Shown here: positions 6,050 through 62,653 of the stretch, piece by piece
Layout: each line of letters opens with the position of its first letter
How positions within the stretch are numbered: position 1 is the first letter of the stretch
Origin: a virus
Taxonomy: Duplodnaviria > Caudoviricetes
Strand: one strand, 5' to 3'
IMG/VR virus record: IMGVR_UViG_3300014208_000024
Location: 224,001 to 288,000 of that record
Length of the DNA stretch: 64,000 bases
The notes under the pieces: model-generated
Databases searched by the model: none
Seen by the model: only the letters and a program-made list of their open reading frames with translations
Told to the model about the DNA's origin: nothing
Made by a program: the position numbers and the translations under genes

Positions 6050-9000
6050 TTAATTAAAATCTTTGTCCATTTTCCAATAGAAATTAGAACCAGTATTATC
6101 AGTAACATATTTGAAGTTTAAAATATCTGATTTTGTTGCCCCTGTCGTAAGATTAATTGTAGTTCCCGTTCCATATGCGCTCGCAATTTTACTATTTGCT
6201 GGCAAATTAATTATATGTCCACCAACACCATCTTGTTTAACTAAAATATTTCCCTCTTGTCCACTTGCAACATTTTGTATATTTAATGTTCCATTGGCTC
6301 CAGTTAATGTTATATATGTATTGTGTTTTACACTTGCATCCCAATAAACTGTAACATCATCATTTAGTGAATAAAAAGAACCTCCAAGAAAATTTAGAGC
6401 TTCTGTTACGGAGTCAGTATAAGATATTCCAAAAGAAGTTCCAGTTACTTGAATGTTTGAATCATTTCTTATATAATTTGATGAATATTTTAAAGAAATA
6501 GAACTTCCAGTTGTTGGTATATAATCATTTAAAATAGCTCCTCCATACATGTTTGTAACTCCTGAAAAATTTAAAAAGTCTTCCGTAATAACAGAATTAA
6601 AACAATTAAACGTAACTCCAGTTGAAAGATTTGCTGCATTTAAAATTACACTATTAAAAGCATTTATTTCAACATCTCCTTCTATTGTTGTTGAAGAAAG
6701 TGCTTTTATATTAGAGTTTGATAAAGAAAATAATGTATTTGTATATCCAGCAGGTTTATAAATGTTATTATCTGCGTAAACATGAATATTTGCATCTGAA
6801 TAACTTCCTCTAAAATAAAATTTTCCATTTTTAAAAACAGAATCTTCAGCACCAGAAAGTAGTTGACAATTTTTTATTGAAAGAGAATTTGTGTTATAAC
6901 AATTAATTTTTCCGTAAAAATAACAATCGGAAAAAATAAAACCAGTAGATCCAAAACCAGTTCCATTAGTTTCTCCAGAAACAGAAATTGGAGAGTAGAA
7001 TATAAGTTTCGAAAATTCTAAGGCTGCTAAATTTGTGTTGTTTGTTTCGCTAACAATAGAATAAGGACTTCCGCTGATAATAGTAGTTCCATTTCCATTT
7101 ATTGTTATAAACCTTAAAGAACTATTTTGTAATGTAATTGGTTCATAATATATACCTGAATTAATATTTATTCTATATGGATTTGCCGTGGTACTTCCAC
7201 CGTTTTCTATTATATAATTTGTTGCTCCAGAAATAGATTTAAAGGGTGAATTTACATTACCGTTTTCAACATAAGAATCCGTTCTTTGTTTATCAACATA
7301 AACTGTTTTTGTCGAATTAAAAACAGCTCCAAAAACATCTGTTGTTCCTGAATAAAGGTTGTTTACATATGTTGAATATGGTTGTGATGCAGTAACTCCG
7401 CTGGCTCCAAGAATTACACTTCCAATTGCTGATGTTGTTGTTGTATTTCCGCTACCACCAATTATATTAGAATATTGTCCATTTGTAACATTATATTGAC
7501 CAGAAGCATGACTATGTTCGCCGATAGTTGTTGTTTTATATCCTTCAGCATGACTCCAATTTCCAATTGCTGTTGTATAACCACCTTCAGCATGACTTGA
7601 TGTTCCAGATGTTTTGGTGCCTATACCTTCAGCGTGACTATATTCTCCAATTGAAGTTGTGAAATTACCTTCAGCATGACTTGATGTTCCAGAGGATCTA
7701 GTTAATATACCTTCAGCATGACTATAATCACCATCAGAGGTTGAATAAAATCCCTCAGCATGGCTTGATACTCCACTAGATATTGTACCATATCCTTCTG
7801 CATGACTATATTGTCCATAAGTTCTACAATCATTTCCTTCAGTATGACTATAATCTCCACTTGCTATTGTAACATAACCCTCAGCATGACTTGATGCCCC
7901 AGAAGATATTGTTAATTTACCCTCTGCGTGACTATAATTTCCTATTGAAGTACTATTTATCCCTTCAGCATGGCTCGAATCACCAAAAGATTTTGTTTCA
8001 TTACCTTCTGTGTGACCATAAGCTCCATTTGAAATGCTGTACAATCCTTCTGAATGACTATATAAACCATTAGCTGTCGTTAATCTACCTTCTGCGTGAC
8101 TTGCATATCCACTTGCCAAAGTAGATTCTCCTTCTGCATGACCATAAAATCCTGTAGTTATTGCACTAAGTCCTTCTGCATGACTCCATTTTTCATTCGT
8201 TGTTGTTTTATCTCCCTCTGTATGAGAAAAATCACTAACAGCAACAGTATCAAGACCCTCAGCGTGACTTTGTGCTCCAATTGATTGTGTTTGATAACCT
8301 TCAGAGTGGCTCCAATTTCCCAATGCTGTAGTTGCATTTCCCTCTGCGTGACTTGAAGTTGCACTGGCTATTGTATTTAAACCTTCAGCATGACTATTAG
8401 ATCCTATAGAAATACAACTTTTTCCCTCTGCATGACTACTGTTTCCACTGGAAGTTGTACTATCTCCTTCGGCGTGACTTTGTTTTCCAGTAGAAATAGT
8501 GCTATATCCTTCCGCATGACTACTTACTCCACTAGACAATGTTTCTCTTCCTTCAGAATGACCAGCAAATCCAACAGCTGTTGTTAAATACCCTTCTGAA
8601 TGAGATGCGTTTCCACTAGCTGTTGTTGCCACTCCTTCTGCATGAGTATTATCACCAAAAGCTATGTTTAAATTTCCTTCTGCGTGACTAAAAACACCAA
8701 CAGATGTTGTTCCACTTCCTTCTGCGTGACTTGAATATCCACTGGCCGTTGAAAAATAACCCTCTGCATGTGTGTAATATCCTATTGATGTTGTTGAAAA
8801 TCCTTCAACGTGTGAATATGTTCCATTTGCTATAGTAGCATTTCCTTCTGCATGACTTCCAACTCCACTTGTAATAGTTTGAGTTCCTTCAGCATGACTG
8901 TAAAGTTCGTTTGATGTTGTTGAAAAACCTTCGGCATGACTGCTTTTCCCATAAGCTATTGTATATTCACCTTCACTATGTCCATATTGTCCAAAAGATG

Positions 9001-9643
9001 TTGTACTATATCCTTCACTATGACTGTGTAATCCAAGAGAAGTTGTTTCTTTTCCTTCAGAATGGCTATAATCAGCATTACTTTTTGTAGCATATCCTTC
9101 AGCATGGCTTTCGTTTCCACTTGATATAGAGGTTTTCCCTTCAGCATGACTACCTATACCAATAGATGTAGTTTCTGATCCTTCAGAATGACTATAATTA
9201 CCATTTGAATTTGTTATTTCCCCCTCTGAATGGCTTGCATTCCCATTGGTAGTTGTGTTATATCCTTCAGAATGACTGTTGTCACCTAATGAACTTGACA
9301 AATTTCCTTCTGCATGGCTATTATCATTAGATGCTAAATTACAATAACCATGAGCTAAAGAATATTGTCCTGTTGAATTTAATGTATTTCCAGTACCAAC
9401 AACTGCTTTTATGGAATAAGAACCAGAACTTCCAGATATCCAATAATTATCAGAACCTCCAATAGGTTTAAATATATCATATAAATTTGTAGTTCCAGAA
9501 ATCATTGTTCCAGCACTTAATAAGACAGAGTTTGCTTCGTTAAAAGTAGCAACATTAAAAGATGCAGTTGCACTAAATGCTTGATTTATTGCAACTCTTC
9601 CTTGATCTAAGGTATTTGAACTTAATATTAATTCACCAGTCAT
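6050..9643 (-). CDS. Tail fibre / receptor-binding adhesin with YadA-like left-handed beta-roll repeats and a beta-helix-like region
   Basis: 1197 aa; 43 tandem 14-aa xSH(A/S)EG repeats, then a YVDK...NSPFKSI motif typical of the start of right-handed beta-helices, then a C-terminal fibre-type domain; TATTTATA on - strand at 9657-9664. Confidence 0.8.
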   Translation of the reverse strand: MTGELILSSNTLDQGRVAINQAFSATASFNVATFNEANSVLLSAGTMISGTTNLYDIFKPIGGSDNYWISGSSGSYSIKAVVGTGNTLNSTGQYSLAHGYCNLASNDNSHAEGNLSSSLGDNSHSEGYNTTTNGNASHSEGEITNSNGNYSHSEGSETTSIGIGSHAEGKTSISSGNESHAEGYATKSNADYSHSEGKETTSLGLHSHSEGYSTTSFGQYGHSEGEYTIAYGKSSHAEGFSTTSNELYSHAEGTQTITSGVGSHAEGNATIANGTYSHVEGFSTTSIGYYTHAEGYFSTASGYSSHAEGSGTTSVGVFSHAEGNLNIAFGDNTHAEGVATTASGNASHSEGYLTTAVGFAGHSEGRETLSSGVSSHAEGYSTISTGKQSHAEGDSTTSSGNSSHAEGKSCISIGSNSHAEGLNTIASATSSHAEGNATTALGNWSHSEGYQTQSIGAQSHAEGLDTVAVSDFSHTEGDKTTTNEKWSHAEGLSAITTGFYGHAEGESTLASGYASHAEGRLTTANGLYSHSEGLYSISNGAYGHTEGNETKSFGDSSHAEGINSTSIGNYSHAEGKLTISSGASSHAEGYVTIASGDYSHTEGNDCRTYGQYSHAEGYGTISSGVSSHAEGFYSTSDGDYSHAEGILTRSSGTSSHAEGNFTTSIGEYSHAEGIGTKTSGTSSHAEGGYTTAIGNWSHAEGYKTTTIGEHSHASGQYNVTNGQYSNIIGGSGNTTTTSAIGSVILGASGVTASQPYSTYVNNLYSGTTDVFGAVFNSTKTVYVDKQRTDSYVENGNVNSPFKSISGATNYIIENGGSTTANPYRININSGIYYEPITLQNSSLRFITINGNGTTIISGSPYSIVSETNNTNLAALEFSKLIFYSPISVSGETNGTGFGSTGFIFSDCYFYGKINCYNTNSLSIKNCQLLSGAEDSVFKNGKFYFRGSYSDANIHVYADNNIYKPAGYTNTLFSLSNSNIKALSSTTIEGDVEINAFNSVILNAANLSTGVTFNCFNSVITEDFLNFSGVTNMYGGAILNDYIPTTGSSISLKYSSNYIRNDSNIQVTGTSFGISYTDSVTEALNFLGGSFYSLNDDVTVYWDASVKHNTYITLTGANGTLNIQNVASGQEGNILVKQDGVGGHIINLPANSKIASAYGTGTTINLTTGATKSDILNFKYVTDNTGSNFYWKMDKDFN
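7500..9322 (-). repeat. 42-bp period coding tandem repeat (43 HxEG units plus one degenerate HASG)
   Basis: Counted from the translation, NSHAEG through WSHAEG then HSHASG; DNA shows recurring ccttc(a/t)g(c/a)(a/g)tg(a/g)ct every 42 bp. Confidence 0.95.
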
Positions 9644-51903: not shown

Positions 51904-52347
51904 ATGAACATAAGAATTGTAAACAAATCAAAAAACGCATTACCAAATTATGAAACTTCTCTCTCTGCAGGTATGGATTTGAAAGCAAATTTCGAAAATC
52001 AAGGAGAGTTCGCAACAATCAAACCATTTCAAAGACAATTGATTAAAACGGGTTTATTCATTGAGATTCCAGAAGGTTATGAGGCTCAAATACGTCCAAG
52101 ATCTGGTTTGGCATTAAAAAGTGGAATAACAGTTCTTAATTCACCAGGGACTATTGATGCTGATTTTAGAGGTGAGATAGGAGTTATTTTAATTAATCTT
52201 TCAGATAAAGATTTTGAAATTAAACAAGGAGATAGAATAGCACAAATGGTAATTTGTAAACACGAAAAAGCAGAACTTGAAAATGTTTTGTTAATCAGTG
52301 AAACAAAGCGTGGAGCAGGTGGATTTGGGCATACTGGTAATAAATAA
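51904..52347 (+). CDS. dut: dUTPase (trimeric)
   Basis: All five motifs: [34 protein letters not shown]. Confidence 0.97.
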
Positions 52348-52351
52348 AAAT

Positions 52352-53551
52352 ATGAAACAATACGTTGATTTAATTACAACTATCCTTAAAGAAGGAAGAA
52401 TAAAAACTGATCGCACTGGAACTGGAACTATTTCTACATTTGGACATCAGTCTGTATTTTACATGAAAGACGGATTTCCTCTTTTGACAATGAAAAAAAC
52501 ATATCCCAGAGGAGTTTTTGAAGAGCTTCTATGGTTTCTTAAAGGAGATACAAACATTCGATATCTGAATCAAAAAAAGGTTCACATTTGGGATGAGTGG
52601 GCCTATGCCAAATATAAAAAATACGCAGAATCACTAAGTGAACCAAATTTCGAAATTCACATTGATGATCCAAAAAATAATTGTACAAGGATAATGACAC
52701 TAGAAGAATTTGTAAATGTTATCGTTGATAATGAAGATTTTGCTAAACGTTGGGGAGGGCTGGGTCCTGTTTACGGAAAACAATGGGTTGATTGGGGCGG
52801 ACACCCAGTAAAACGTGAGGAAATATGGAGCGAAGATGATCAGAAGTGGATTAGTTATGAAGTAAGAAAAAAAGGAATAAACCAAATTGAAAATATCATT
52901 GATCGTCTCAAAAGCGTTCCAGACTGCAGAAGACTTATTGTTAGCGCTTGGAATGTTGAAGATCTTGGTGAAATGGCACTTACTCCTTGTCATACAATGT
53001 TTCAGTTTATTACTGAACCTCTAAATTTTAAAGAAAGAGTGGAACTTTTAGAAGAACAAATGGGGGAAGATAAAAGATTTTTAGAGGGTTTGGATACAAA
53101 TGGAGTTAATGGGTGTTTTGCAAAATACAAAACTCCATCATTTAGACTTTCTTTACAGCTCTTTCAAAGAAGTGCAGATACTTTTCTTGGTGTTCCTTTT
53201 AATATTGCTTCTTATGCTCTCTTATTACATATGGTCTCACAAGTAGTAAATATGATTCCTTATAAATTTGTTCATTCTTTTGGAGATGCTCATCTTTATT
53301 TAAATCACAAAGAACAAATTAATGAATTCATACACAGAACACATGAAGCAAAAATAGAAAAAGTTGATTATTGGAAAGAAATCACAAATGGGATACAGCC
53401 TGGGAAAATAACAGGAACTTATTTTGGCCCAAAACTTCCAACTATAAAACTAAACTCAAAAATAAAAGATATTTTTGAATTTACAATAGACGACATCGAA
53501 CTAATAGATTACAATCCGCTTTCAGCAATAAAAGCTCCAATAGCAGTGTAA
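52352..53551 (+). CDS. thyA: Thymidylate synthase
   Basis: DRTGTGT, ELLWFLKG, LGPVYGKQW, PCH nucleophile, QRSADTFLGVPFN (dUMP-specifying Asn), GDAHLYLNH; start ATG 52352. Confidence 0.96.
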   Translation: MKQYVDLITTILKEGRIKTDRTGTGTISTFGHQSVFYMKDGFPLLTMKKTYPRGVFEELLWFLKGDTNIRYLNQKKVHIWDEWAYAKYKKYAESLSEPNFEIHIDDPKNNCTRIMTLEEFVNVIVDNEDFAKRWGGLGPVYGKQWVDWGGHPVKREEIWSEDDQKWISYEVRKKGINQIENIIDRLKSVPDCRRLIVSAWNVEDLGEMALTPCHTMFQFITEPLNFKERVELLEEQMGEDKRFLEGLDTNGVNGCFAKYKTPSFRLSLQLFQRSADTFLGVPFNIASYALLLHMVSQVVNMIPYKFVHSFGDAHLYLNHKEQINEFIHRTHEAKIEKVDYWKEITNGIQPGKITGTYFGPKLPTIKLNSKIKDIFEFTIDDIELIDYNPLSAIKAPIAV

Positions 53552-53940: not shown

Positions 53941-53969
53941 AAAAAAGCCAGAAAAATTCTGGCTTTTTT
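53941..53969. terminator. Bidirectional intrinsic terminator
   Basis: A6-GCCAGAA..TTCTGGC-T6. Confidence 0.85.
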
Positions 53970-54357
53970 ATTGATTTAAACCTGGCGGCTTATTGTCAAC
54001 AGAATTTCTGATTGATGTTTCTGTATTTCTATTGTTGCCAGTTCTGTCTAAAATAACTTTTATATCACCCTTTATATCTCCTATTTCCTTAATAAATTCT
54101 TCATCCTTCTTTTGGAACGTTCCTAGTTTTTCATCAAGCTTTGTTTCAACAGTTTTTATAAAATCACTTTTATCTTTTTCTATTTGTTCTTTATATGTTT
54201 TTACATCATCTTTAACATCAATATAGGCAATTGTAAATGCGGTAGAAAATAAAAATATAACACCTCCAATTAACCAAAGTGCAATTTTTACAGATAAAGT
54301 AATTTTTGTGTTTTCTCCTATTACCTTTTCTCCAACTTGTACCTCCTTATCAGCCAT
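53968..54357 (-). CDS. Single-TM + coiled-coil late membrane protein (holin/antiholin-like candidate)
   Basis: IALWLIGGVIFLFSTAFTIAYI followed by heptads; two tandem TATTTATA (-) at 54374 and 54396. Confidence 0.45.
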   Translation of the reverse strand: MADKEVQVGEKVIGENTKITLSVKIALWLIGGVIFLFSTAFTIAYIDVKDDVKTYKEQIEKDKSDFIKTVETKLDEKLGTFQKKDEEFIKEIGDIKGDIKVILDRTGNNRNTETSIRNSVDNKPPGLNQ

Positions 54358-54412: not shown

Positions 54413-54903
54413 TTAATAAACAATAGAAGATTGCCAAGTAATATTTACTATATCATCTGTAGAATTTGAATAAAAAACAGCACCTAAGTTTACGCCATCA
54501 AAGTAGTCAGTTTTTTGATTAATTAAAAAATAATCTAAATAAAGAACTGTTTTTTTTACACCAGAAGAATTTGTAATACATACGTTAATTCCAGTTAGAT
54601 ATGTTCCTGAAAGATATCCATTATAGTTGTAGCTATTGCTAAAGAAAAAAATATAATAAGCATATACTCCATTTGTCGAAAGTGTTGCTCTCATTATTTT
54701 TGTATAATGAGATGCACATCCATAACAAACATTTCCAGTCAACCCCACTCATAAACAAAACCAGTTCTATCTACTAAGGTTTGATAATAATTTATACAAT
54801 TGTTTTCTACAATTTTTTTATAACTTTTCTGTTTAAAATTTTGTGCAATACTTACAAATCCAAGTAAAACCAAAAGTATTAATATTAAAAATTTTTTTAT
54901 CAT
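54413..54903 (-). pseudogene. Secreted protein gene interrupted by a -1 frameshift (or sequence error) at a G4 run
   Basis: Signal peptide MIKKFLILILLVLLGFVSIAQ...YEWG then TGA; adding one G to TGGGGT (54743-54746 region) fuses it to LTGNVCYGC...; span is 491 nt = 3n-1. Confidence 0.55.
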
Positions 54904-54907
54904 TTTT

Positions 54908-56653
54908 TTACAAATCATATATTTCATCAAACCCAAAATTCATAGCAAAATCTTTAATTAATATCCCTGCTTTTGCATTTGCCTCATCTTCTATCCATCC
55001 TCCAATGGTTTGTACTATTTCTCCATCTCCAAAACTTTTAATTTCTCTTTGTCTGTTATGCGTTAATTCGTGAGCTATACTTCTTAATATATCAACAATT
55101 GCTCTTCCAGTACATCTTATATGGTTTGAGTTTTCATCGGGAACATAAGAGGCTGTAGTGGCTATATATTCATCTCTCCCTTTGTGAAGATATATTTCAA
55201 CTGGCTCCTCTAACTCTAATCTATTACATACAAAATTAATAAAGTTCCTTATAATTTCAACTTTTTCTGGAGTCATTCCTTCAATTCCTTTTTCTACTCC
55301 CAGTGTGTTTTCTTTTTTTCCAATGCTAAAGTTATATTTTTCTTTTGGGGGATATGAATAAGAAAAATTATCGCTTAAGAATTTAATCGACTTTTTCAAC
55401 TTCTTTGAATATTTTTCTCCCGTTCCTGGTTTTAAATATGCTATAGTCATATGAGGGTGATAATCTGGATGATCGTTTTTATATTCAAAATTATCTCTCA
55501 AACTTTTGTTTAAATCATGTAAATCATCAGAATCAATATCAAACTTTAAAACATCGAAATCTTTGTTTTTAAACAAAGAAATTTCACTTAATTCAATTTC
55601 AATTTTTTTCTTTCCACTTAATGTTTTTCTTACAATTTTTTCAACATCACTGGGTTTAGTTTTTTCATGTATAAAACCAAATAGTGCAGTTGTATGAGGT
55701 TTGTCTTCTATTCCATAACCTGGAACATCATAAATGTCTTCTTTTTTTATTAAGTCGGTTATTTGTTTCCAATTCTTTATTGGGAAATCTAACATTAAAC
55801 ACCCATATTCTTTTTTAAATCCCCCTTTACCTTCTTTGAGTATAGATTTTTTTGGTTTATGTGATTCAAATAAATCTTTTTCCATTAAAGACAAAGAGGT
55901 GTCAAAAGATTTTGTTTTTATATCTGAAAGTTTATCTAAATAACCAGACTTTCTGATTATTTTAAAAACAAGATTTTCTATTGAATATTCTCCACCTTTT
56001 TCAAGGCCAGAATTTCTTAGTTTTTTTATTTTATCTTTTATTTTATCAGCCTTTTCAATAATCTTTTCATCGTTTTCTAAGTTTTGAAGACTGTCTATAT
56101 CATTCATAATAGTAGCAGCTTTTTCTTTTATAGAAACTCCATCTACTTCTTTTGTATATTTCTCTGGCTTTTGAATCCATGAGTCTTTAAGAACACTATA
56201 AACGCCCTTATTTGAAAACAAATTTTCTTCATCTTTAGCAAACAATTCAACTTCAAATCCTTTTATTTTTATATCATGTTCATCATTCCATAAAGATTTC
56301 TTTGCAGCTATATATTCTTGTAGAAACTCTTCTGGTTCCTCTAAAGAAGGTAAGTCTAAAATTAAATGAATGTCTATATCACTCATTAATGTCCAATTAT
56401 AATTAGCTAAACTTCCAGTGAAAATTACATCTTTTAAACGAACTCCTAATTTTAAATATTCCTTAAATGCTTTTGCTATTTTTAACATAGCAACCCTTAC
56501 TTCTTTTTTTAATTTATAATTTTCCCAAATTTGACTATTTAACTCATCTTTAGGCTCACTCACTTGAACATCTATATCGTTTGGAGAAATATCTTCGTTA
56601 AAAAAATTAAAACTTCTTTTTATAATATAAGGATTCCCTTTATTTGTTTCCAT
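54908..56653 (-). CDS. Three-domain protein: Pol-beta-type nucleotidyltransferase + 2H phosphoesterase (Acb1/LigT-like) + HExxH zincin-like domain
   Basis: FTGSLANYNW..SDIDIH and VELF (NTase); KPHTTALF and DYHPHMTIAY (two HxT motifs); SIAHELTH...EDEANAKAG; TATTTATA (-) at 56670. Confidence 0.85.
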   Translation of the reverse strand: METNKGNPYIIKRSFNFFNEDISPNDIDVQVSEPKDELNSQIWENYKLKKEVRVAMLKIAKAFKEYLKLGVRLKDVIFTGSLANYNWTLMSDIDIHLILDLPSLEEPEEFLQEYIAAKKSLWNDEHDIKIKGFEVELFAKDEENLFSNKGVYSVLKDSWIQKPEKYTKEVDGVSIKEKAATIMNDIDSLQNLENDEKIIEKADKIKDKIKKLRNSGLEKGGEYSIENLVFKIIRKSGYLDKLSDIKTKSFDTSLSLMEKDLFESHKPKKSILKEGKGGFKKEYGCLMLDFPIKNWKQITDLIKKEDIYDVPGYGIEDKPHTTALFGFIHEKTKPSDVEKIVRKTLSGKKKIEIELSEISLFKNKDFDVLKFDIDSDDLHDLNKSLRDNFEYKNDHPDYHPHMTIAYLKPGTGEKYSKKLKKSIKFLSDNFSYSYPPKEKYNFSIGKKENTLGVEKGIEGMTPEKVEIIRNFINFVCNRLELEEPVEIYLHKGRDEYIATTASYVPDENSNHIRCTGRAIVDILRSIAHELTHNRQREIKSFGDGEIVQTIGGWIEDEANAKAGILIKDFAMNFGFDEIYDL

Positions 56654-56722
56654 CAAATAACTATTTTTTTATAAATAGTTTTATTTTATGATTTTTTAAT
56701 TATTTATTGGAAATTTAACAAT

Positions 56723-57308
56723 ATGAATGAAAATTTAAAGGATTTATTAAGTTTTGGAAATAGTAAGGTTGGAAATGATACTGCTATTTTTAATATGAAC
56801 GCAGCATTTGATTGTCCATCAGAAAAAATCGGACTTTGTAAACATGCAAAAAACTGTTATGCGAAAAAAGCGGAAAGAATTTATCCACAATCTTTGCCAT
56901 ACAGAAGGAGACAAGAGAATTATTGGGATTTAACAGATGTGAAAACTTTTGTTGAAGAGTTTAAAGAAGCAATAAAAAAACAAAAAGAAAAACCCAATAA
57001 AATATTTACGTATTAGTGAAAGTGGAGATTTTAAATCTCAATCTGATGTAGATAAGTTAAGTTTAATTTCAGAACAACTTAAAGGATTCGTTGTAGTTTA
57101 TGTATATACAGCAAGAAAAGATTTAGATTTTAATAAAATATCAGACAACTTAGTTGTAAATGGATCTGGTTTTATGGTTTCTAACAACTTTTATATTATA
57201 GATAAAGTTGGTGATGAAATAGATAAATTTGTTTGCCCTGGTGCATGTATTAGTTGTAATCTTTGTAAGAGAGCAAAAGGAAGAAATATAGCAGTGTTAA
57301 AACATTAA
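56723..57308 (+). pseudogene. Gp88-like Fe-S/radical-SAM-like protein split by a +1 frameshift (programmed, mutated or error)
   Basis: Frame 0 has GNSK...CPSEKIGLCKHAKNCYAK and stops at 57016; the +1 frame from AAA-CCC-A (56990-56996) continues PIKYLRISESGDF...YTAR...CPGACISCNLC...KH to TAA 57306-57308; span is 586 nt = 3n+1. Confidence 0.7.
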
Positions 57309-58859: not shown

Positions 58860-60254
58860 TTAAGATTTGCTAATAAATATTATTTTCTTTATTTCTTCTG
58901 AATTTCCAGAATCTAAAATTCTTTTAACCATATCTGGATTTTTGTAAAATTCCTTTTCTAATCTTGCAATAGCCATCCCCAATTCTCTTTCTTGGTATCC
59001 AAGTGATTTAAGCAACTCGGAAGGTTGTATAAATTCATTTGCAAGTCTTAAAAAATTGCTTATTTTAATTCTGTCTATGTGACTTATGTTTGCAAAACTA
59101 TATATCATATCTTCTGTCATTGAATAAATTTTTTCGTTTATTTTAGGTTTTGCACTTTTTGCCTTTTGAAGATATAGTTTTTTTATAGAAGAAACAGTGT
59201 TTTCGTTTAAACTTAACAAAGAAACAAGAAAAATAATACAACTTATTTCATCAGTACTATATTTTCTAAAATTTAATTCTTTTTCTATGTTTTTTACATT
59301 ATTGTCTTTTAATAAGTTAGAAACTAAGATTATTGGATTTTTCTCTTCAATAAAATAATTAGCACTAAAAGTTAAATTACCAAATATATATTTAAAAAAA
59401 TCAAAATCTTTTAACAATTCAAGAAAGTGTTTTACGCTTTTTGAACTTTTAATTCCTTTATAAAACTCATCCCTTATTCTTTCCAAAGAAACCATTTTTC
59501 CAGTAGGGTCGGTCAAAGAAGTTCCCCCTTCCCTAATAGCTTCAGCAACATTGTCGGGAATTTTAGATCCCATTTTTGCAGCAAATCTTATAGCTCTAAT
59601 TTTTCTCAATGGATCTTCATCAAATCTATCGGTTGGATTTCCGACGGTGTTAATAACATTGTTTTTAACATCATTTACTCCACCAACAAAATCTAATACA
59701 TCTCCTTCAAAACCATTTTCTGCAATTCCAGTTATTTCATAAAACAATGCGTTGATCGTTAAATCTCTTCTTTTTGAATCTTCCTCTGGATTATCTACGT
59801 ACTCAACACTATCTGGTTTTCTTCCTCCTCCAACATCTTTTCTAAATGTTGCCAATTCATATCTGTTTCCAGATTTTGTTACTATAAATTGAATTGCAAA
59901 TGATTCTCCAATGTGCAAAATATTGGAAACGAAAGGTGCCTTTTCGAATAATGTTCTTATTTGATCTGGAAAAGCATTGGTGGCCAAATCAAAATCTTTT
60001 GGCACATCAATAGTTGTATCCATTGGGTTCTTTTGTAATTTTATTTCGTTTTTTACAGCGTCTCTTACGGCACCACCAACAATATACATTTTAAAATTAT
60101 TCGCAAGTAATATTTCTCTTATTTTTAAAATATCTTCTTTGTCACTTGACGCCACTGGCATATTAAGAGGAAACCTTTTTTCTCCATTATCTTCCTTTAA
60201 AAAATTCTCAAGTAATATCTTTCTTATTTTTTTTCTGGCAATTTTTTCTTCCAT
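58860..60254 (-). CDS. cca: Class II tRNA nucleotidyltransferase (CCA-adding enzyme), no HD domain, with N-terminal leader
   Basis: YIVGGAVRD, DFDLAT, ELATFRKD, RRDLTINA, templating EDPLR, ERIRDE; leader MEEKIARKKIRKILLENFLKED; TATTTATA (-) at 60268. Confidence 0.88.
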   Translation of the reverse strand: MEEKIARKKIRKILLENFLKEDNGEKRFPLNMPVASSDKEDILKIREILLANNFKMYIVGGAVRDAVKNEIKLQKNPMDTTIDVPKDFDLATNAFPDQIRTLFEKAPFVSNILHIGESFAIQFIVTKSGNRYELATFRKDVGGGRKPDSVEYVDNPEEDSKRRDLTINALFYEITGIAENGFEGDVLDFVGGVNDVKNNVINTVGNPTDRFDEDPLRKIRAIRFAAKMGSKIPDNVAEAIREGGTSLTDPTGKMVSLERIRDEFYKGIKSSKSVKHFLELLKDFDFFKYIFGNLTFSANYFIEEKNPIILVSNLLKDNNVKNIEKELNFRKYSTDEISCIIFLVSLLSLNENTVSSIKKLYLQKAKSAKPKINEKIYSMTEDMIYSFANISHIDRIKISNFLRLANEFIQPSELLKSLGYQERELGMAIARLEKEFYKNPDMVKRILDSGNSEEIKKIIFISKS

Positions 60255-60351
60255 AAACAACATTTTTTATAAATATGAAAACTTTTTAGTAATTTTTACG
60301 TTATTATTCAAATAAAGTTATTATATTTGTATAAATAATTTTAAAAATTAA

Positions 60352-60639
60352 ATGGAAACAATACAAAAGGAAACAATACAAAAGGTAAATCTTCAACCCG
60401 TTGCATCAGTTAGAAAATGGGACACAAAAAGAATTAAAGCCTATATGGTAAGAATTCAAAAACATATTTCTTTTTTAGAATCTGGGAAACCATATGATAA
60501 TGAAGATCATTATGGTGAAAATCGTCAACCTTTATCTCAGGAAAAAATAGAAAATCAAGAAGGAATTGTCCTGCAAAAATTCAAAAATTATAAAGAAGAA
60601 TTAAAAAAAATTCTTGAAGGGAGAGAACATATTGAATAA
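60352..60639 (+). CDS. Hypothetical protein
   Basis: 95 aa after TATATTTG (60322). Confidence 0.55.
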   Translation: METIQKETIQKVNLQPVASVRKWDTKRIKAYMVRIQKHISFLESGKPYDNEDHYGENRQPLSQEKIENQEGIVLQKFKNYKEELKKILEGREHIE

Positions 60640-60676
60640 TTTTTCGTATAAGATAGTAAAATATAAAAATTTTATC

Positions 60677-61876
60677 ATGAAAACAAAATCACCAGAACCG
60701 ATTAACAAAGATTCAATTCTTTGGGCAGATTTATATAAATTTACCATGACTTGGGCAATTATTAAAAACTTCCCATCTGCAAAAGTTAGATATGAATTTA
60801 TAGACAGAAACAATACAGTGTACCCAGATGGTTTTGCAGTGGAATTGCGTAAAATAGTTAATGAATATCGCAATAAAAGATTATCCATACAAAGAAAAAA
60901 AGAATTTTCAGAAAAATGCACATTTTTGCCAGCTGTATTTTTCGACTTTTTAGAAGGATATAGATATGACCCCAGCGAAGTCGGAATAATTCAAACAGGA
61001 GGTAAACTATCTATTCAAATTGCAGGATATTGGTATCGAACATGTCTTTGGGAAACAACGTTAATGGAAGACATTTGTGAATTGTATTATAATATGACGG
61101 GACAAAGTGATGATAATGTAGATATTAAAAATTCTCTTGAAAAAACTGAAGCAAAAGCTAACTTATTTTATATGAATAACGCACAAATCGTGGATTTTGG
61201 AACAAGAAGAGCAAAATCAAAAAACGTTCATATGCAAATAGTTGATGTGTTGTCAAATTCCCTTTTGTATACAAACTTTATCGGGTCAAGCAATGTAGAA
61301 CTTGCATTATACAACAATATAAAACCTATTGGAACTTATGCTCATGAATGGGTTTCTGGTATAGCTTCGATGTTCGGATATGCTCATGCCAATAGAATTG
61401 CTATGGAATATTGGGTTCAAACATATAATGGAAATTTAGGCATTGCACTGACTGATACATTTACAACAGATTCTTTTTTAGAAGATTTTGATTCTAAGTA
61501 TGCTAATCTTTTTACTGGAGTTAGGCATGATAGTTATGACCCTTTTGTTTTTACTGATAAAATGATTGATCATTACAAAAAACTTGGAATAGCACCAGAA
61601 ACAAAAACAATTGTATATTCAGATGGATTGAACCCCGAAATGGTAATAAAAATTCAGAATTATAGAAAAGGTGAAATTAAAAAATCATATGGAATTGGAA
61701 CTAATTTAACAAATGATATTAAAGATGTTAAACCAATGAATATAGTTATTAAACTTTTGGAAATAAATGGCATGCCAGTCATTAAATTATCAGATTCTTT
61801 GACAAAACACATTGGAGATGAAGAAACAATTAAATTTGTTAAATGGCAAATTGAACAACGTTTAAAAAATAAATAA
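60677..61876 (+). CDS. pncB: Nicotinate phosphoribosyltransferase
   Basis: DLYKFTM, DFGTRR, GTYAHEW (phospho-His), LTDTF, GVRHDS, YSDGL, GIGTNLTND, KLSD; start ATG 60677. Confidence 0.92.
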   Translation: MKTKSPEPINKDSILWADLYKFTMTWAIIKNFPSAKVRYEFIDRNNTVYPDGFAVELRKIVNEYRNKRLSIQRKKEFSEKCTFLPAVFFDFLEGYRYDPSEVGIIQTGGKLSIQIAGYWYRTCLWETTLMEDICELYYNMTGQSDDNVDIKNSLEKTEAKANLFYMNNAQIVDFGTRRAKSKNVHMQIVDVLSNSLLYTNFIGSSNVELALYNNIKPIGTYAHEWVSGIASMFGYAHANRIAMEYWVQTYNGNLGIALTDTFTTDSFLEDFDSKYANLFTGVRHDSYDPFVFTDKMIDHYKKLGIAPETKTIVYSDGLNPEMVIKIQNYRKGEIKKSYGIGTNLTNDIKDVKPMNIVIKLLEINGMPVIKLSDSLTKHIGDEETIKFVKWQIEQRLKNK

Positions 61877-62653
61877 TTTTTTTAATCTACCTTTTTTCCA
61901 TCCCAATTTTACATATAAATCTAATTCGTTTTTTATAACACGTTTACTTTCCTGCTTTTCTGTGTTATAAATCCATATTTTCCCAATTTGAGAGTTACTC
62001 ATTCTTTCTTTGGTTTCATTAGAATAAATATTATCTTTACCCTTATTCCACGGCAACTTTCCTTTATTACATTCAGAACATTTTCTTTTAGACTCATCTG
62101 AATGGTGTTTTCCAAACATTGGGTTGTTTTTTCCATAATTTGATCTAATATTTTTTCTTGCTTTGTCTGATATTGGAACACCTTTTCTATATTCACTTAA
62201 TTTATTTTTTACTTCATCTGAATGATGTTTTCCAAATCTTGGAGATTTTTCACCAGACATTTTTTCTCTAAGCTTTTGTTTAGTTTCTTCTGTATGAGTT
62301 CTTCCATACATTGGATTTCTTTTTCCTGTCATCATTTCTTTTCTCTTTTGTGTAACTTCTTTTGTCATTTTCTTTCCACAATTTGTATATACAACAGAAT
62401 TTCTTATGTTGTATCCAACTTCTTTGTTTATAGATTTTAGTTTTTTAATCCAATAAACTTCTAATTCTTTAATTTCATCTATCGTTAACGCAAAAGATTC
62501 TTCAATGATTTCTTTTTTGAAGTTTTCTTTGCCATACTTTTTAATAGCATATTTAATTGCTGTACCAGAACCTAAATAATTAGGATTATTTTTTGTATCT
62601 AGTCCTATATATATTTTCCCATTGATTAAATTCGTTGTTTTATAAATTATCAT
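61862..62653 (-). CDS. GIY-YIG homing endonuclease with NUMOD3 repeats
   Basis: MIIYKTTNLINGKIYIG...YLGSG; repeats such as NPMYGRTHTEETKQKL, RFGKHHSDEVKNKL, NPMFGKHHSDESKRK. Confidence 0.92.
   Translation of the reverse strand: MIIYKTTNLINGKIYIGLDTKNNPNYLGSGTAIKYAIKKYGKENFKKEIIEESFALTIDEIKELEVYWIKKLKSINKEVGYNIRNSVVYTNCGKKMTKEVTQKRKEMMTGKRNPMYGRTHTEETKQKLREKMSGEKSPRFGKHHSDEVKNKLSEYRKGVPISDKARKNIRSNYGKNNPMFGKHHSDESKRKCSECNKGKLPWNKGKDNIYSNETKERMSNSQIGKIWIYNTEKQESKRVIKNELDLYVKLGWKKGRLKKLFIF

What the first reader, a model, noticed from the sequence alone, without database searches (positions are those of the whole stretch)
54908..56677. Nucleotidyltransferase + Acb1-like 2H phosphodiesterase + HExxH domain in one late polypeptide
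Seen: a Pol-beta NTase signature (GS...DID), two HxT motifs, and a C-terminal HELTH...EDEANA zincin-like motif in one 581-aa ORF. The second HxT motif, DYHPHMTIAY, closely resembles DYTPHITLSY of T4 Acb1/gp57B as I recall it. The NTase/2H junction is the linker DLFESHKPKKSILKEG, with two x-x-E sites, and the gene has a late promoter. Known: Acb1 is a 2H enzyme that degrades CBASS cyclic oligonucleotides; LigT-like 2H enzymes open 2',3'-cyclic phosphates; Pol-beta NTases include cGAS/CD-NTases and RNA-tailing enzymes. Inference: a polyprotein that is cut into separate anti-defence modules, acting either as a signal-degrading (possibly decoy-making) unit or as an RNA end-repair unit. I do not know a characterised protein with this three-domain order.
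Basis: partly seen in the sequence, partly recalled or inferred. Interest (0 to 1): 0.8.

Follow-up and report, generated by a model that had tools for sequence, protein, structure and literature searches.

The report
Late phage NTase–2H–zincin polyvalent protein
A 372-kb T4-like phage makes, from a late promoter, one 581-residue protein that strings together a nucleotidyltransferase, a removable Acb1-like phosphodiesterase cassette and a small zinc protease; it is probably a counter-defence protein that is cut up by the head protease and carried in the virion, but no enzyme activity or cleavage has been shown.

Summary
Window 54908-56653 (-) is one 581-aa ORF with:
- a Pol-beta NTase (G80-S81, D92xD94, E136);
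- a 2H phosphoesterase (H320-T-T, H401-M-T);
- a C-terminal minimal gluzincin (H528ExxH532, E555).

All three folds are predicted with confidence, separated by a disordered linker.

New points:
1. More than 500 metagenomic phage homologues exist. Their constant core is NTase + zincin. The 2H domain is a cassette in the linker, gained or lost at least 7 times.
2. The zincin is a promiscuous module (2227 cluster representatives). It occurs alone or fused to M23, SLT, PAP2, SOD, Zeta-kinase and exonuclease domains. This is the signature of the metallopeptidase hub of phage "polyvalent proteins".
3. TATTTATA, 16 nt upstream, is enriched. It also precedes the phage's major capsid and prohead protease genes, so "late" is supported.
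4. The phage has a T4 gp21-type protease. Two L/I-x-E sites are conserved family-wide: after a 13-20-aa leader in most members, and at the end of the NTase.

The 2H domain shares its second motif with T4 and FBB1 Acb1. By structure and by Pfam it cannot be separated from LigT, YjcG or Usb1.

Verdict: a new architecture of a known kind. The mechanism (late synthesis, head-protease cutting, virion delivery, anti-signal or RNA-end activity) is inferred, not shown.

The parts
56670..56677 (-). TATTTATA promoter-like motif, 16 nt upstream of the ATG; likely late promoter
   Evidence: The window holds 38 copies against 14.2 expected. The motif lies 11-27 nt upstream of about 20 ORF starts, including an endolysin. 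It also lies directly upstream of the gp23-like capsid gene, the gp21-like protease gene and three more ORFs of the head module.
54908..56653 (-). CDS of the 581-aa NTase-2H-zincin protein (stop codon at 54908-54910)
   Evidence: 571 homologues
56594..56653 (-). N-terminal leader, residues 1-20, ending F-N-E20; candidate capsid-targeting propeptide
   Evidence: pLDDT is below 50. In the aligned column, E occurs in 42 of 46 sequences. The residue two before it is L/F/M/V in 41 of 46. The site lies 13-20 residues from the N-terminus in 30 of 46.
55880..56572 (-). Pol-beta nucleotidyltransferase plus helical domain, residues 28-258 (G80-S81, D92xD94, E136); ends in the conserved S-L-x-E258
   Evidence: phrog_36119 at 2.7e-49. 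PF01909 scores 22.8 bits for the isolated domain, cut-off 21. Invariant residues. Model pLDDT is mostly 80-95. Stand-alone phage homologues end at this same point.
55817..55879 (-). Disordered linker, residues 259-279. Together with L256-M-E258 it gives three L-x-E sites within 19 residues.
   Evidence: insertion point of 2H, DUF3008 and DUF5661 in homologues
55316..55816 (-). 2H phosphoesterase cassette, residues 280-446 (H320-T-T322, H401-M-T403)
54911..55315 (-). Minimal gluzincin metallopeptidase-like domain, residues 447-581 (H528-E-x-x-H532, E555)

Best explanation
The gene encodes a small phage-type polyvalent protein.

**Shown**
- One late-promoter gene gives a single polypeptide with three catalytically intact-looking modules: a Pol-beta NTase, a 2H phosphoesterase and a gluzincin.
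- The NTase + zincin pair is the conserved core of a large family restricted to phage contigs.
- The 2H domain sits as a cassette in the disordered linker.

**Inferred**
- The protein is made late, together with the head proteins.
- Its 13-20-residue leader takes it into the prohead.
- The phage's T4 gp21-type protease cuts after the conserved hydrophobic-x-E20 and L-x-E258 (plus the extra L-x-E sites in the linker).
- This yields a free NTase and a 2H-zincin fragment, which travel with the DNA into the next host.
- There the 2H module hydrolyses host nucleotide signals (Acb1-like) or 2',3'-cyclic phosphate ends.
- The NTase and the zinc peptidase act on host defence proteins or nucleic acids that are still unknown.
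For: **Domains**
- Pfam, PHROG and NCBIfam matches.
- Invariant catalytic residues.
- Models with pLDDT 83 and 90.
- Fold matches.

**Core and cassette**
- HExxH lies about 53 residues from the C-terminus in all but one of the best 120 homologues, the 392-516-aa forms without 2H included.
- The tree of the core needs at least 7 changes of the 2H state.
- The short form and the 2H form occupy the same syntenic slot.

**Polyvalent hub**
- The zincin profile finds 2227 cluster representatives. They are either stand-alone or fused to unrelated enzymes: M23 x9, PG_binding, SLT, muramidase, PAP2, SOD + Zeta kinase, RNase_T, PolB exonuclease, 2H, NTase.
- BFVD gives amidoligase, AAA and cytidylyltransferase fusions.
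- This matches the zincin hub of polyvalent proteins in PMC5512222.
- One stand-alone relative lies in a run of genes upstream of a weakly matched (faint Pfam hit) tail-sheath-like gene.

**Late expression**
- TATTTATA is enriched and positioned before ORF starts.
- It also precedes the capsid and prohead protease genes.

**Processing**
- A gp21-type protease is present (PF03420, 2.9e-30).
- T4 gp21 cuts after L/I-x-E, and 10-residue leaders target proteins into T4 heads (PMC9026906).
- Position 256-258 reads L/I/V-x-E in 45 of 46 sequences. Position 18-20 reads hydrophobic-x-E in about 40 of 46. Both lie in low-confidence, probably disordered stretches.
- Three of the protein's 11 L/I-x-E sites fall within 19 linker residues.
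Against: - There is no proteomic, transcriptomic or biochemical datum for this protein or any homologue.
- The conserved L-x-E residues could be structural: a helix cap at the end of the NTase domain.
- The gene lies among nucleotide-metabolism genes, not structural genes. The stand-alone NTase homologue of cyanophage S-CRM01 lies next to primase and RNR genes.
- The late motif also precedes a CCA-adding enzyme and homing endonucleases, so late expression does not by itself mean packaging.
- The AF2 domain arrangement is undefined (pTM 0.39).
- The NTase subfamily is unresolved.
- The zincin is the most conserved module (72% mean column identity). That fits a dedicated enzyme better than a mere processing or targeting tag.
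Confidence: 0.4

Rival explanations
1. A late cytoplasmic counter-defence enzyme that is neither packaged nor cut. It is expressed together with capsid and protease proteins because those are the triggers of CBASS-like and abortive-infection systems. The 2H cassette degrades the resulting cyclic oligonucleotides in the producing cell. The NTase-zincin core neutralises another late-triggered defence.
For: The late motif is shared with the head genes. The second 2H motif is Acb1-like, and Acb1 is the profile's best match among solved structures. The patchy presence of the 2H cassette fits an accessory anti-defence function under fluctuating selection. The gene sits next to an NAD-salvage cluster (NAPRTase here; Nudix, NMNAT-like and NAD synthase in relatives), which is another counter-defence theme.
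Against: It does not explain the conserved leader, the inter-domain L/I-x-E sites, or why the zincin module is shared with peptidoglycan hydrolases and other polyvalent-type fusions. Acb1 membership is not established.
Confidence: 0.3
2. An RNA 3'-end repair enzyme that works with the neighbouring CCA-adding enzyme. The 2H domain opens 2',3'-cyclic phosphates left by host anticodon or tRNA nucleases, and the NTase adds back nucleotides.
For: The order CCA enzyme - small genes - NTase-(2H)-zincin is conserved in relatives at about 48% identity. In those relatives the CCA enzyme carries or adjoins a cREC phosphoesterase domain. PF13563 and phrog_755 'RNA ligase' are the best sequence families for the 2H. 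The NTase has weak matches to poly(A) polymerase-type palms (PF22600; GLD-2).
Against: Synteny among related phages is weak evidence of a shared pathway. The zincin, the most conserved module, has no role in this scheme. The 2H is dispensable in 52 of 116 members. There is no RNA ligase, kinase or phosphatase partner in the neighbourhood and no tRNA genes in the window. TIGR02258 (RNA 2',3'-cyclic phosphodiesterase) scores 29.8 bits against a cut-off of 65.7.
Confidence: 0.15
3. Self-processing polyvalent protein. The C-terminal zincin itself cuts the linker, in cis or in trans, to release the modules, independently of the prohead protease.
For: Iyer et al. 2017 propose this role for zincin hubs. 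The linker is disordered and exposed.
Against: The conserved junction motif L/I-x-E is the specificity of gp21-type serine proteases, and the phage has such a protease. The very high conservation of the zincin suggests a specific external substrate.
Confidence: 0.1
4. One reading: the NTase is a cGAS/CD-NTase-like enzyme that makes competing cyclic nucleotides.
For: Only a single low-quality Foldseek row to CdnE (rank 50, E 2.6e-3, TM 0.13-0.21).
Against: No Pfam or PADLOC CD-NTase match was found. The weak matches are to minimal NTases, GLD-2 and DrrA.
Confidence: 0.05

Closest known systems
Phage-type polyvalent proteins with a zincin-like metallopeptidase hub (Iyer, Burroughs, Anand, de Souza, Aravind 2017, PMC5512222)
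   Same: Several unrelated enzymatic domains sit in one phage polypeptide. A minimal HExxH...E zincin serves as the shared module and occurs N-terminally, C-terminally or alone. 2H domains occur in phage-type members. Processing into separate units and delivery with the DNA are proposed.
   Different: This protein is much smaller (3 domains, 581 aa). [quoted passage not shown] The zincin here matches no Pfam model and lacks the extra conserved Asp described for the common phage clade (Q535 instead). Membership of one of their 12 clades was not tested.
Acb1 (T4 gp57B, FBB1 Acb1; PF23474), anti-CBASS 2H phosphodiesterase
   Same: 2H fold, HxT/HxT tetrad, and a shared second motif (F/Y)-(P/D)-D-Y-x-P-H-(I/M)-T-(I/L)-(A/S)-Y. 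An Acb1 chain is the best match of the domain profile among solved structures (6e-5).
   Different: It is a domain inside a larger protein, not a 150-aa stand-alone enzyme. The Pfam Acb1 score is below the cut-off (25.3 against 27). hhalign to T4 57B covers only 34 columns (probability 84%). Structural Z to Acb1 (11.5-11.9) is no better than to Usb1, CPDase, LigT-like or YjcG (12.2-13.9). The C-terminal lid was not examined.
LigT/ThpR, YjcG and archaeal 2'-5' RNA ligase-like 2H enzymes (PF13563, PF02834, TIGR02258)
   Different: TIGR02258 is far below its cut-off (29.8 against 65.7). The second motif ends in A-Y as in Acb1, rather than the G/L-R of LigT-like proteins.
T4 internal proteins and Alt (capsid-targeted, gp21-trimmed, injected counter-defence or host-takeover proteins)
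   Same: Late expression. A short N-terminal leader ends in hydrophobic-x-E (T4 IPI as read here: MKTFKEF...I-T-E). A gp21-type protease is encoded by the phage. A counter-defence role is plausible.
   Different: Packaging and cleavage are only inferred here. The second, internal site would split a multi-enzyme protein, which is not known for the T4 internal proteins.
Wss1/SprT-like, ImmA/IrrE and minigluzincin peptidases; YbeY
   Different: No sequence-level membership: no Pfam or NCBIfam match at E <= 1. YbeY uses a different metal motif (from general knowledge of that family). No DNA-binding or regulatory partner domains are present.

Membership tests
Pol-beta nucleotidyltransferase superfamily | G-[SG] motif followed by D-x-D, plus a third carboxylate on a later strand | tested here: met
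   G80-S81, D92-I-D94 and E136 are all invariant in 46 homologues.
Pol-beta nucleotidyltransferase superfamily | Match to a curated NTase model above its cut-off | tested here: inconclusive
   PF01909 scores 18.9 bits in the full protein, below the cut-off of 21. It scores 22.8 bits for residues 1-270 alone, above the cut-off. Several homologues pass.
cGAS/DncV-like (CD-NTase) nucleotidyltransferases | Sequence or fold similarity specific to the cGAS/OAS clade | tested here: inconclusive
   There is no Pfam or PADLOC CD-NTase match. The only hint is a rank-50 Foldseek row to CdnE with TM 0.13-0.21.
2H phosphoesterase superfamily | Two H-x-[TS] motifs | tested here: met
   H320-T-T322 and H401-M-T403 are the only two H-x-T motifs in the protein. 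H41, H122 and T124 are invariant and T43 at least 90% conserved in alignment A3.
2H phosphoesterase superfamily | 2H fold and a curated model above its cut-off | tested here: met
Acb1 (PF23474) | Score above the family's gathering cut-off | tested here: not met
   25.3 bits against 27 for this protein. Relative P0010 reaches 27.7.
Acb1 (PF23474) | Acb1-type second catalytic motif D-Y-x-P-H-I-T-L-S-Y | tested here: met
   PDYHPHMTIAY here, against T4 DDYTPHITLSY and FBB1 PDYRPHITLSY.
Acb1 (PF23474) | Hydrolysis of 3'3'-cGAMP, cUA or cAAA; C-terminal lid closing over the ligand | not testable with these tools
   This needs enzyme assays or a ligand-bound structure. The features are as defined in PMC9117128.
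LigT/ThpR RNA 2',3'-cyclic phosphodiesterase (TIGR02258) | Equivalog model above its cut-off | tested here: not met
   29.8 bits against 65.7. PF02834 (LigT_PEase) is marginal, 24.5 against 23.3.
Zincin-like (gluzincin) metallopeptidases | HExxH on one helix and a Glu ligand on the next helix | tested here: met
   H528, E529, H532 and E555 are invariant in 46-49 family sequences and in 72 distant multi-domain relatives. Helices 519-537 and 553-572 are in the model.
Zincin-like (gluzincin) metallopeptidases | Zincin core fold (helix, three-stranded sheet, two helices) | tested here: met
ImmA/IrrE (M78), SprT-like, DUF4157 families | Sequence membership in the curated family | tested here: not met
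   Residues 425-581 have no Pfam or NCBIfam match at E <= 1. The similarity is structural only.
Polyvalent proteins of phages (Iyer et al. 2017) | Two or more unrelated enzymatic domains in one polypeptide of a phage, with a zincin peptidase as a recurrent hub | tested here: met
   Three enzymatic domains are present. The same zincin module is fused to M23, SLT, PAP2, SOD + Zeta kinase, RNase_T and others.
Polyvalent proteins of phages (Iyer et al. 2017) | Delivery with the DNA (virion packaging) and processing into units | not testable with these tools
   The evidence is indirect only: the late motif, the gp21-type protease and the conserved L/I-x-E sites.
T4-type capsid-targeted internal proteins | Short N-terminal propeptide ending in L/I-x-E; the phage encodes a gp21-type protease | tested here: inconclusive
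   The protease is present. The leader ends hydrophobic-x-E in about 40 of 46 sequences, but this protein reads F-N-E rather than L/I-x-E. Cleavage was not observed.

The most novel reading that the evidence does not exclude
The virion of a T4-like jumbo phage carries a pre-made anti-signalling kit. A late polyprotein is targeted to the prohead by a short leader and cut by the head protease at a conserved L-x-E. It is then injected, so that an Acb1-like phosphodiesterase is already in the cell when cyclic-oligonucleotide defences (CBASS, type III CRISPR) fire. The conserved NTase + zincin pair would be a new two-enzyme effector that nucleotidylates or cleaves a host defence protein. The 2H cassette is swapped in and out according to the host's defences.
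Probability: 0.2. Interest if true: 0.8.

Novelty: new variant of a known kind. Interest (0 to 1): 0.55.

Why it matters
The known anti-CBASS nucleases are small stand-alone proteins made after infection. Here an Acb1-like domain is built into a late protein that may be carried in the virion. That would show that signal-degrading enzymes can be delivered ahead of gene expression.

It would also give a function to a family of more than 500 members (NTase + zincin) that has none today. The zincin module, with 2227 cluster representatives, is a handle for finding other cargo-like phage enzymes. The conserved L/I-x-E sites make the processing hypothesis directly testable with one protease and one substrate.

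Tried and rejected
- **Complex prediction.** Complex prediction of the NTase (28-258) with the zincin (444-581) gave no verdict (score 0.01). It counts neither for nor against binding.
- **NTase subfamily.** A profile search of solved structures gave only weak rows (minimal NTase 2rff 0.026, GLD-2 0.1, DrrA 0.3). It also gave spurious helical hits to the SK2 channel and cytochrome b562. In the full-length VIA and Foldseek searches the 2H and zincin domains filled the list.
- **UFL1 hit.** The zincin profile's hit to the UFL1 winged helix (E 0.002) was rejected, because the catalytic residues do not align.
- **Molly gene 27.** Maribacter phage Molly gene 27, next to the stand-alone NTase, is not the zincin. 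In isolated phages the NTase and the 2H are distant separate genes, and the zincin is almost absent from that collection.
- **PADLOC.** Only weak PDC-S09 minimal-NTase rows appeared.
- **Atlas lead.** The NTase resembles LPD16 clusters at 0.90. Pfam does not confirm this, so it stays a lead.
- **Other.** There are no tRNA genes in the window. The phage has only one copy of the zincin module.
- **Input errors.** Two literature calls failed on a term that was too short.
Full report
**1. The observation**

The ORF runs 54908..56656 on the minus strand from a TTG. The second codon is ATG at 56653, which gives the 581-aa protein P0001.
- G80-S81...D92-I-D94;
- exactly two H-x-T motifs, H320-T-T and H401-M-T;
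- H528-E-L-T-H and E555-D-E-A-N.

**2. The three domains**

*Sequence families.*
- Pfam gives PF13563 (2H) at 8.6e-12. PF23474 (Acb1) scores 25.3 bits, below its cut-off of 27. PF02834 (LigT) scores 24.5. PF01909 (NTase) scores 18.9 bits in the full protein and 22.8 bits, above its cut-off, for residues 1-270 alone.
- PHROGs gives phrog_36119 (function unknown) over residues 33-256 at 2.7e-49, and phrog_755 over the 2H domain.
- Residues 425-581 match nothing in Pfam or NCBIfam.

*Full-length model.* AlphaFold2 on a 46-sequence alignment gives mean pLDDT 83 but pTM 0.39. Residues 1-20 and 256-279 are below 50. This means three confident domains on flexible tethers.

*C-terminal domain.* Folded alone (pLDDT 90), it is a minimal gluzincin.
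- Foldseek finds Wss1 at 2e-3.
- AFDB clusters named SprT-like, IrrE-like and DUF4157 match at 1e-6 to 1e-4.
- Uncultured-phage proteins in BFVD match at 1e-8.
- H528, E529, H532 and E555 are invariant.

**3. The family and its architecture**

The protein search found 571 homologues. They lie on contigs of up to 540 kb. The window's own record is a 372,283-bp phage genome.

In all but one of the best 120, the HExxH lies about 53 residues from the C-terminus. This holds for the 392-516-aa members that lack the 2H domain. The constant core is therefore NTase + zincin. The 2H domain, and in some members DUF3008 and DUF5661, are inserted in the linker.

A maximum-likelihood tree was built from the NTase + zincin core. 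It has 116 rows; four rows without both motifs or with a truncated N-terminus were left out. The tree needs 9 changes of the 2H state, of which at least 7 are forced by well-supported branches. 2H forms sit in all the deep groups. The cassette has therefore been lost, or exchanged, repeatedly.

The 2H form (L002) and the short form (L003) occupy the same slot in a conserved neighbourhood:
- NAD-salvage genes;
- CCA-adding enzyme;
- small genes;
- NTase-(2H)-zincin;
- two small genes;
- dNMP kinase-like gene;
- thymidylate synthase.

In isolated phages the NTase and the 2H are separate, distant genes. In Maribacter phage Molly they lie at 13.6 kb and 119 kb. The stand-alone NTase there ends exactly where the linker starts here.

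**4. The zincin is a promiscuous module**

A profile of the domain, searched against 1.84 billion cluster representatives, found 2227 proteins at E <= 1e-3 and 693 at E <= 1e-10. They include stand-alone 122-165-aa proteins. They also include N- or C-terminal domains of proteins up to 1877 aa.

Pfam scans of 72 multi-domain hits gave:
- Peptidase_M23 (9);
- DUF5661 (4);
- PG_binding (3), PAP2 (3) and 2H (3);
- SLT (2) and NTase (2);
- muramidase, RNase_T and PolB exonuclease (1 each);
- one 1547-aa protein with Fe/Mn SOD + zincin + Zeta-toxin-like kinase.

BFVD adds fusions named amidoligase, AAA and cytidylyltransferase. One stand-alone relative lies in a same-strand run of genes upstream of a 943-aa gene with only a faint tail-sheath Pfam hit.

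Iyer et al. 2017 (PMC5512222) describe this pattern for the zincin-like metallopeptidase hub of polyvalent proteins. In that paper, 2H domains are listed among phage-type members, and processing by the peptidase is proposed.

**5. Late promoter and head-protease sites**

*Promoter.* TATTTATA occurs 38 times in the window against 14.2 +/- 4.1 expected. About 20 copies lie 11-27 nt upstream of the ATG of a sizeable ORF on the same strand. These include this gene, an endolysin, homing endonucleases and large unannotated proteins.

The genome encodes a gp23-type capsid protein (PF07068, 2.4e-61) and a gp21-type prohead protease (PF03420, 2.9e-30). In a 12-kb stretch around them, five of six TATTTATA copies lie directly upstream of head-module ORFs, the capsid and protease genes among them. 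That supports "late".

*Cleavage sites.* T4 gp21 cuts after L/I-x-E. Ten-residue N-terminal leaders ending at such sites target internal proteins into the head (PMC9026906). In the 46-sequence alignment:
- Column 258 is E in 45 sequences. Column 256 is L in 38, I in 7 and V in 1.
- Column 20 is E in 42 sequences. Column 18 is L in 23, F in 12, M in 3 and V in 3.
- The second site lies 13-20 residues from the N-terminus in 30 sequences.

Both sites fall in the low-confidence stretches of the model. In this protein three of its eleven L/I-x-E sites lie within residues 256-274. No conserved site separates the 2H from the zincin. The strand at 450-453 belongs to the zincin sheet.

These facts fit cutting into an NTase and a 2H-zincin fragment, but they do not prove it.

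**6. Acb1 or LigT?**

The 2H profile's best match among solved structures is Acb1 of Burkholderia phage BCSR5 (6e-5). Next come the LigT-like PH0099 (2.4e-4) and FBB1 Acb1 (1.3e-3).

hhalign against T4 57B gives 84% probability over only 34 columns, centred on the second motif. T4 reads DFDDYTPHITLSYN; the family consensus reads FPDYHPHMTIAY.

Structure does not discriminate. The Acb1 Pfam model is just below its cut-off, and TIGR02258 is far below its own. I file the domain as a distinct 2H clade with an Acb1-like active-site strand. Its substrate is open.

**7. Mechanism and odds**

| Reading | Odds |
|---|---|
| Late-made, leader-bearing polyvalent protein, trimmed by the head protease and delivered with the DNA | 0.4 |
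| Uncut late cytoplasmic counter-defence enzyme | 0.3 |
| RNA 3'-end repair with the neighbouring CCA enzyme | 0.15 |
| Self-processing by the zincin | 0.1 |
| Decoy-making NTase | 0.05 |

Shown: domain identities, family architecture, cassette behaviour, promoter motif, presence of the protease, and conservation of the sites.

Inferred: timing, cleavage, packaging and all substrates.

**8. Novelty**

No characterised protein has this order, and the NTase + zincin family has no assigned function. The general theme is published, so this is a new variant of a known kind.

Noticed in passing
window 56659-56680: An 8-bp AT-rich inverted repeat (AACTATTT ... AAATAGTT) spans the TATTTATA motif in the 69-bp divergent intergenic region between this gene and the GP88-like ORF. 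It could be an operator or a hairpin.
   Followed up: no
window 56723-57016 and 57174-57308 (+): A GP88-family ORF (PF17338, 2.9e-6) covers only the first ~90 positions of a 230-position profile. A 44-aa Cys-rich ORF follows in the same direction. This is possibly a split or decayed gene inserted between conserved neighbours.
   Followed up: partly
window 58860-60263 (-); L002:5321-6766; L003:4779-6474: The CCA-adding enzyme here aligns only to residues 97-479 of the relative's enzyme. It therefore lacks the N-terminal cREC phosphoesterase domain that is fused (L002) or adjacent (L003) in relatives. It has TATTTATA motifs at 60268 and 60330.
   Followed up: partly
window 54413-54936 (-): The gene downstream of the fusion is homologous to a 154-aa gene of relatives, but only from residue 45 onward (54416-54742). 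The N-terminal part lies in another frame (54739-54936, signal-peptide-like). Either the gene is frameshifted or it has a different start. In relatives this gene overlaps the stop codon of the fusion by 4 nt.
   Followed up: partly
window 53968-54357 (-): A 129-aa protein with one transmembrane helix, conserved in relatives at 52% identity, is preceded by two TATTTATA motifs (54374, 54396). Function unknown.
   Followed up: no
window 60614-61876 (+) and relatives L002:1589-5197, L003:1035-4596: NAPRTase here; relatives carry NAPRTase, Nudix, an NMNAT-like cytidylyltransferase and NAD synthase in a row. This is a conserved NAD-rebuilding cluster next to the CCA enzyme. In this phage it is interrupted by a GIY-YIG/NUMOD3 homing endonuclease (61862-62653).
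   Followed up: partly
window 52298-53551 (+): The thymidylate synthase ORF is long (417 aa from a GTG) and overlaps the end of the dUTPase gene. The relative's ThyA is 349 aa and aligns from 52352, so the true start is probably near 52352.
   Followed up: partly
window 6050-9643 (-): A 1197-aa protein with nine repeats of phrog_25468 and a weak tail-assembly match, preceded by TATTTATA 13 nt upstream. It is probably a late structural or fibre protein.
   Followed up: no
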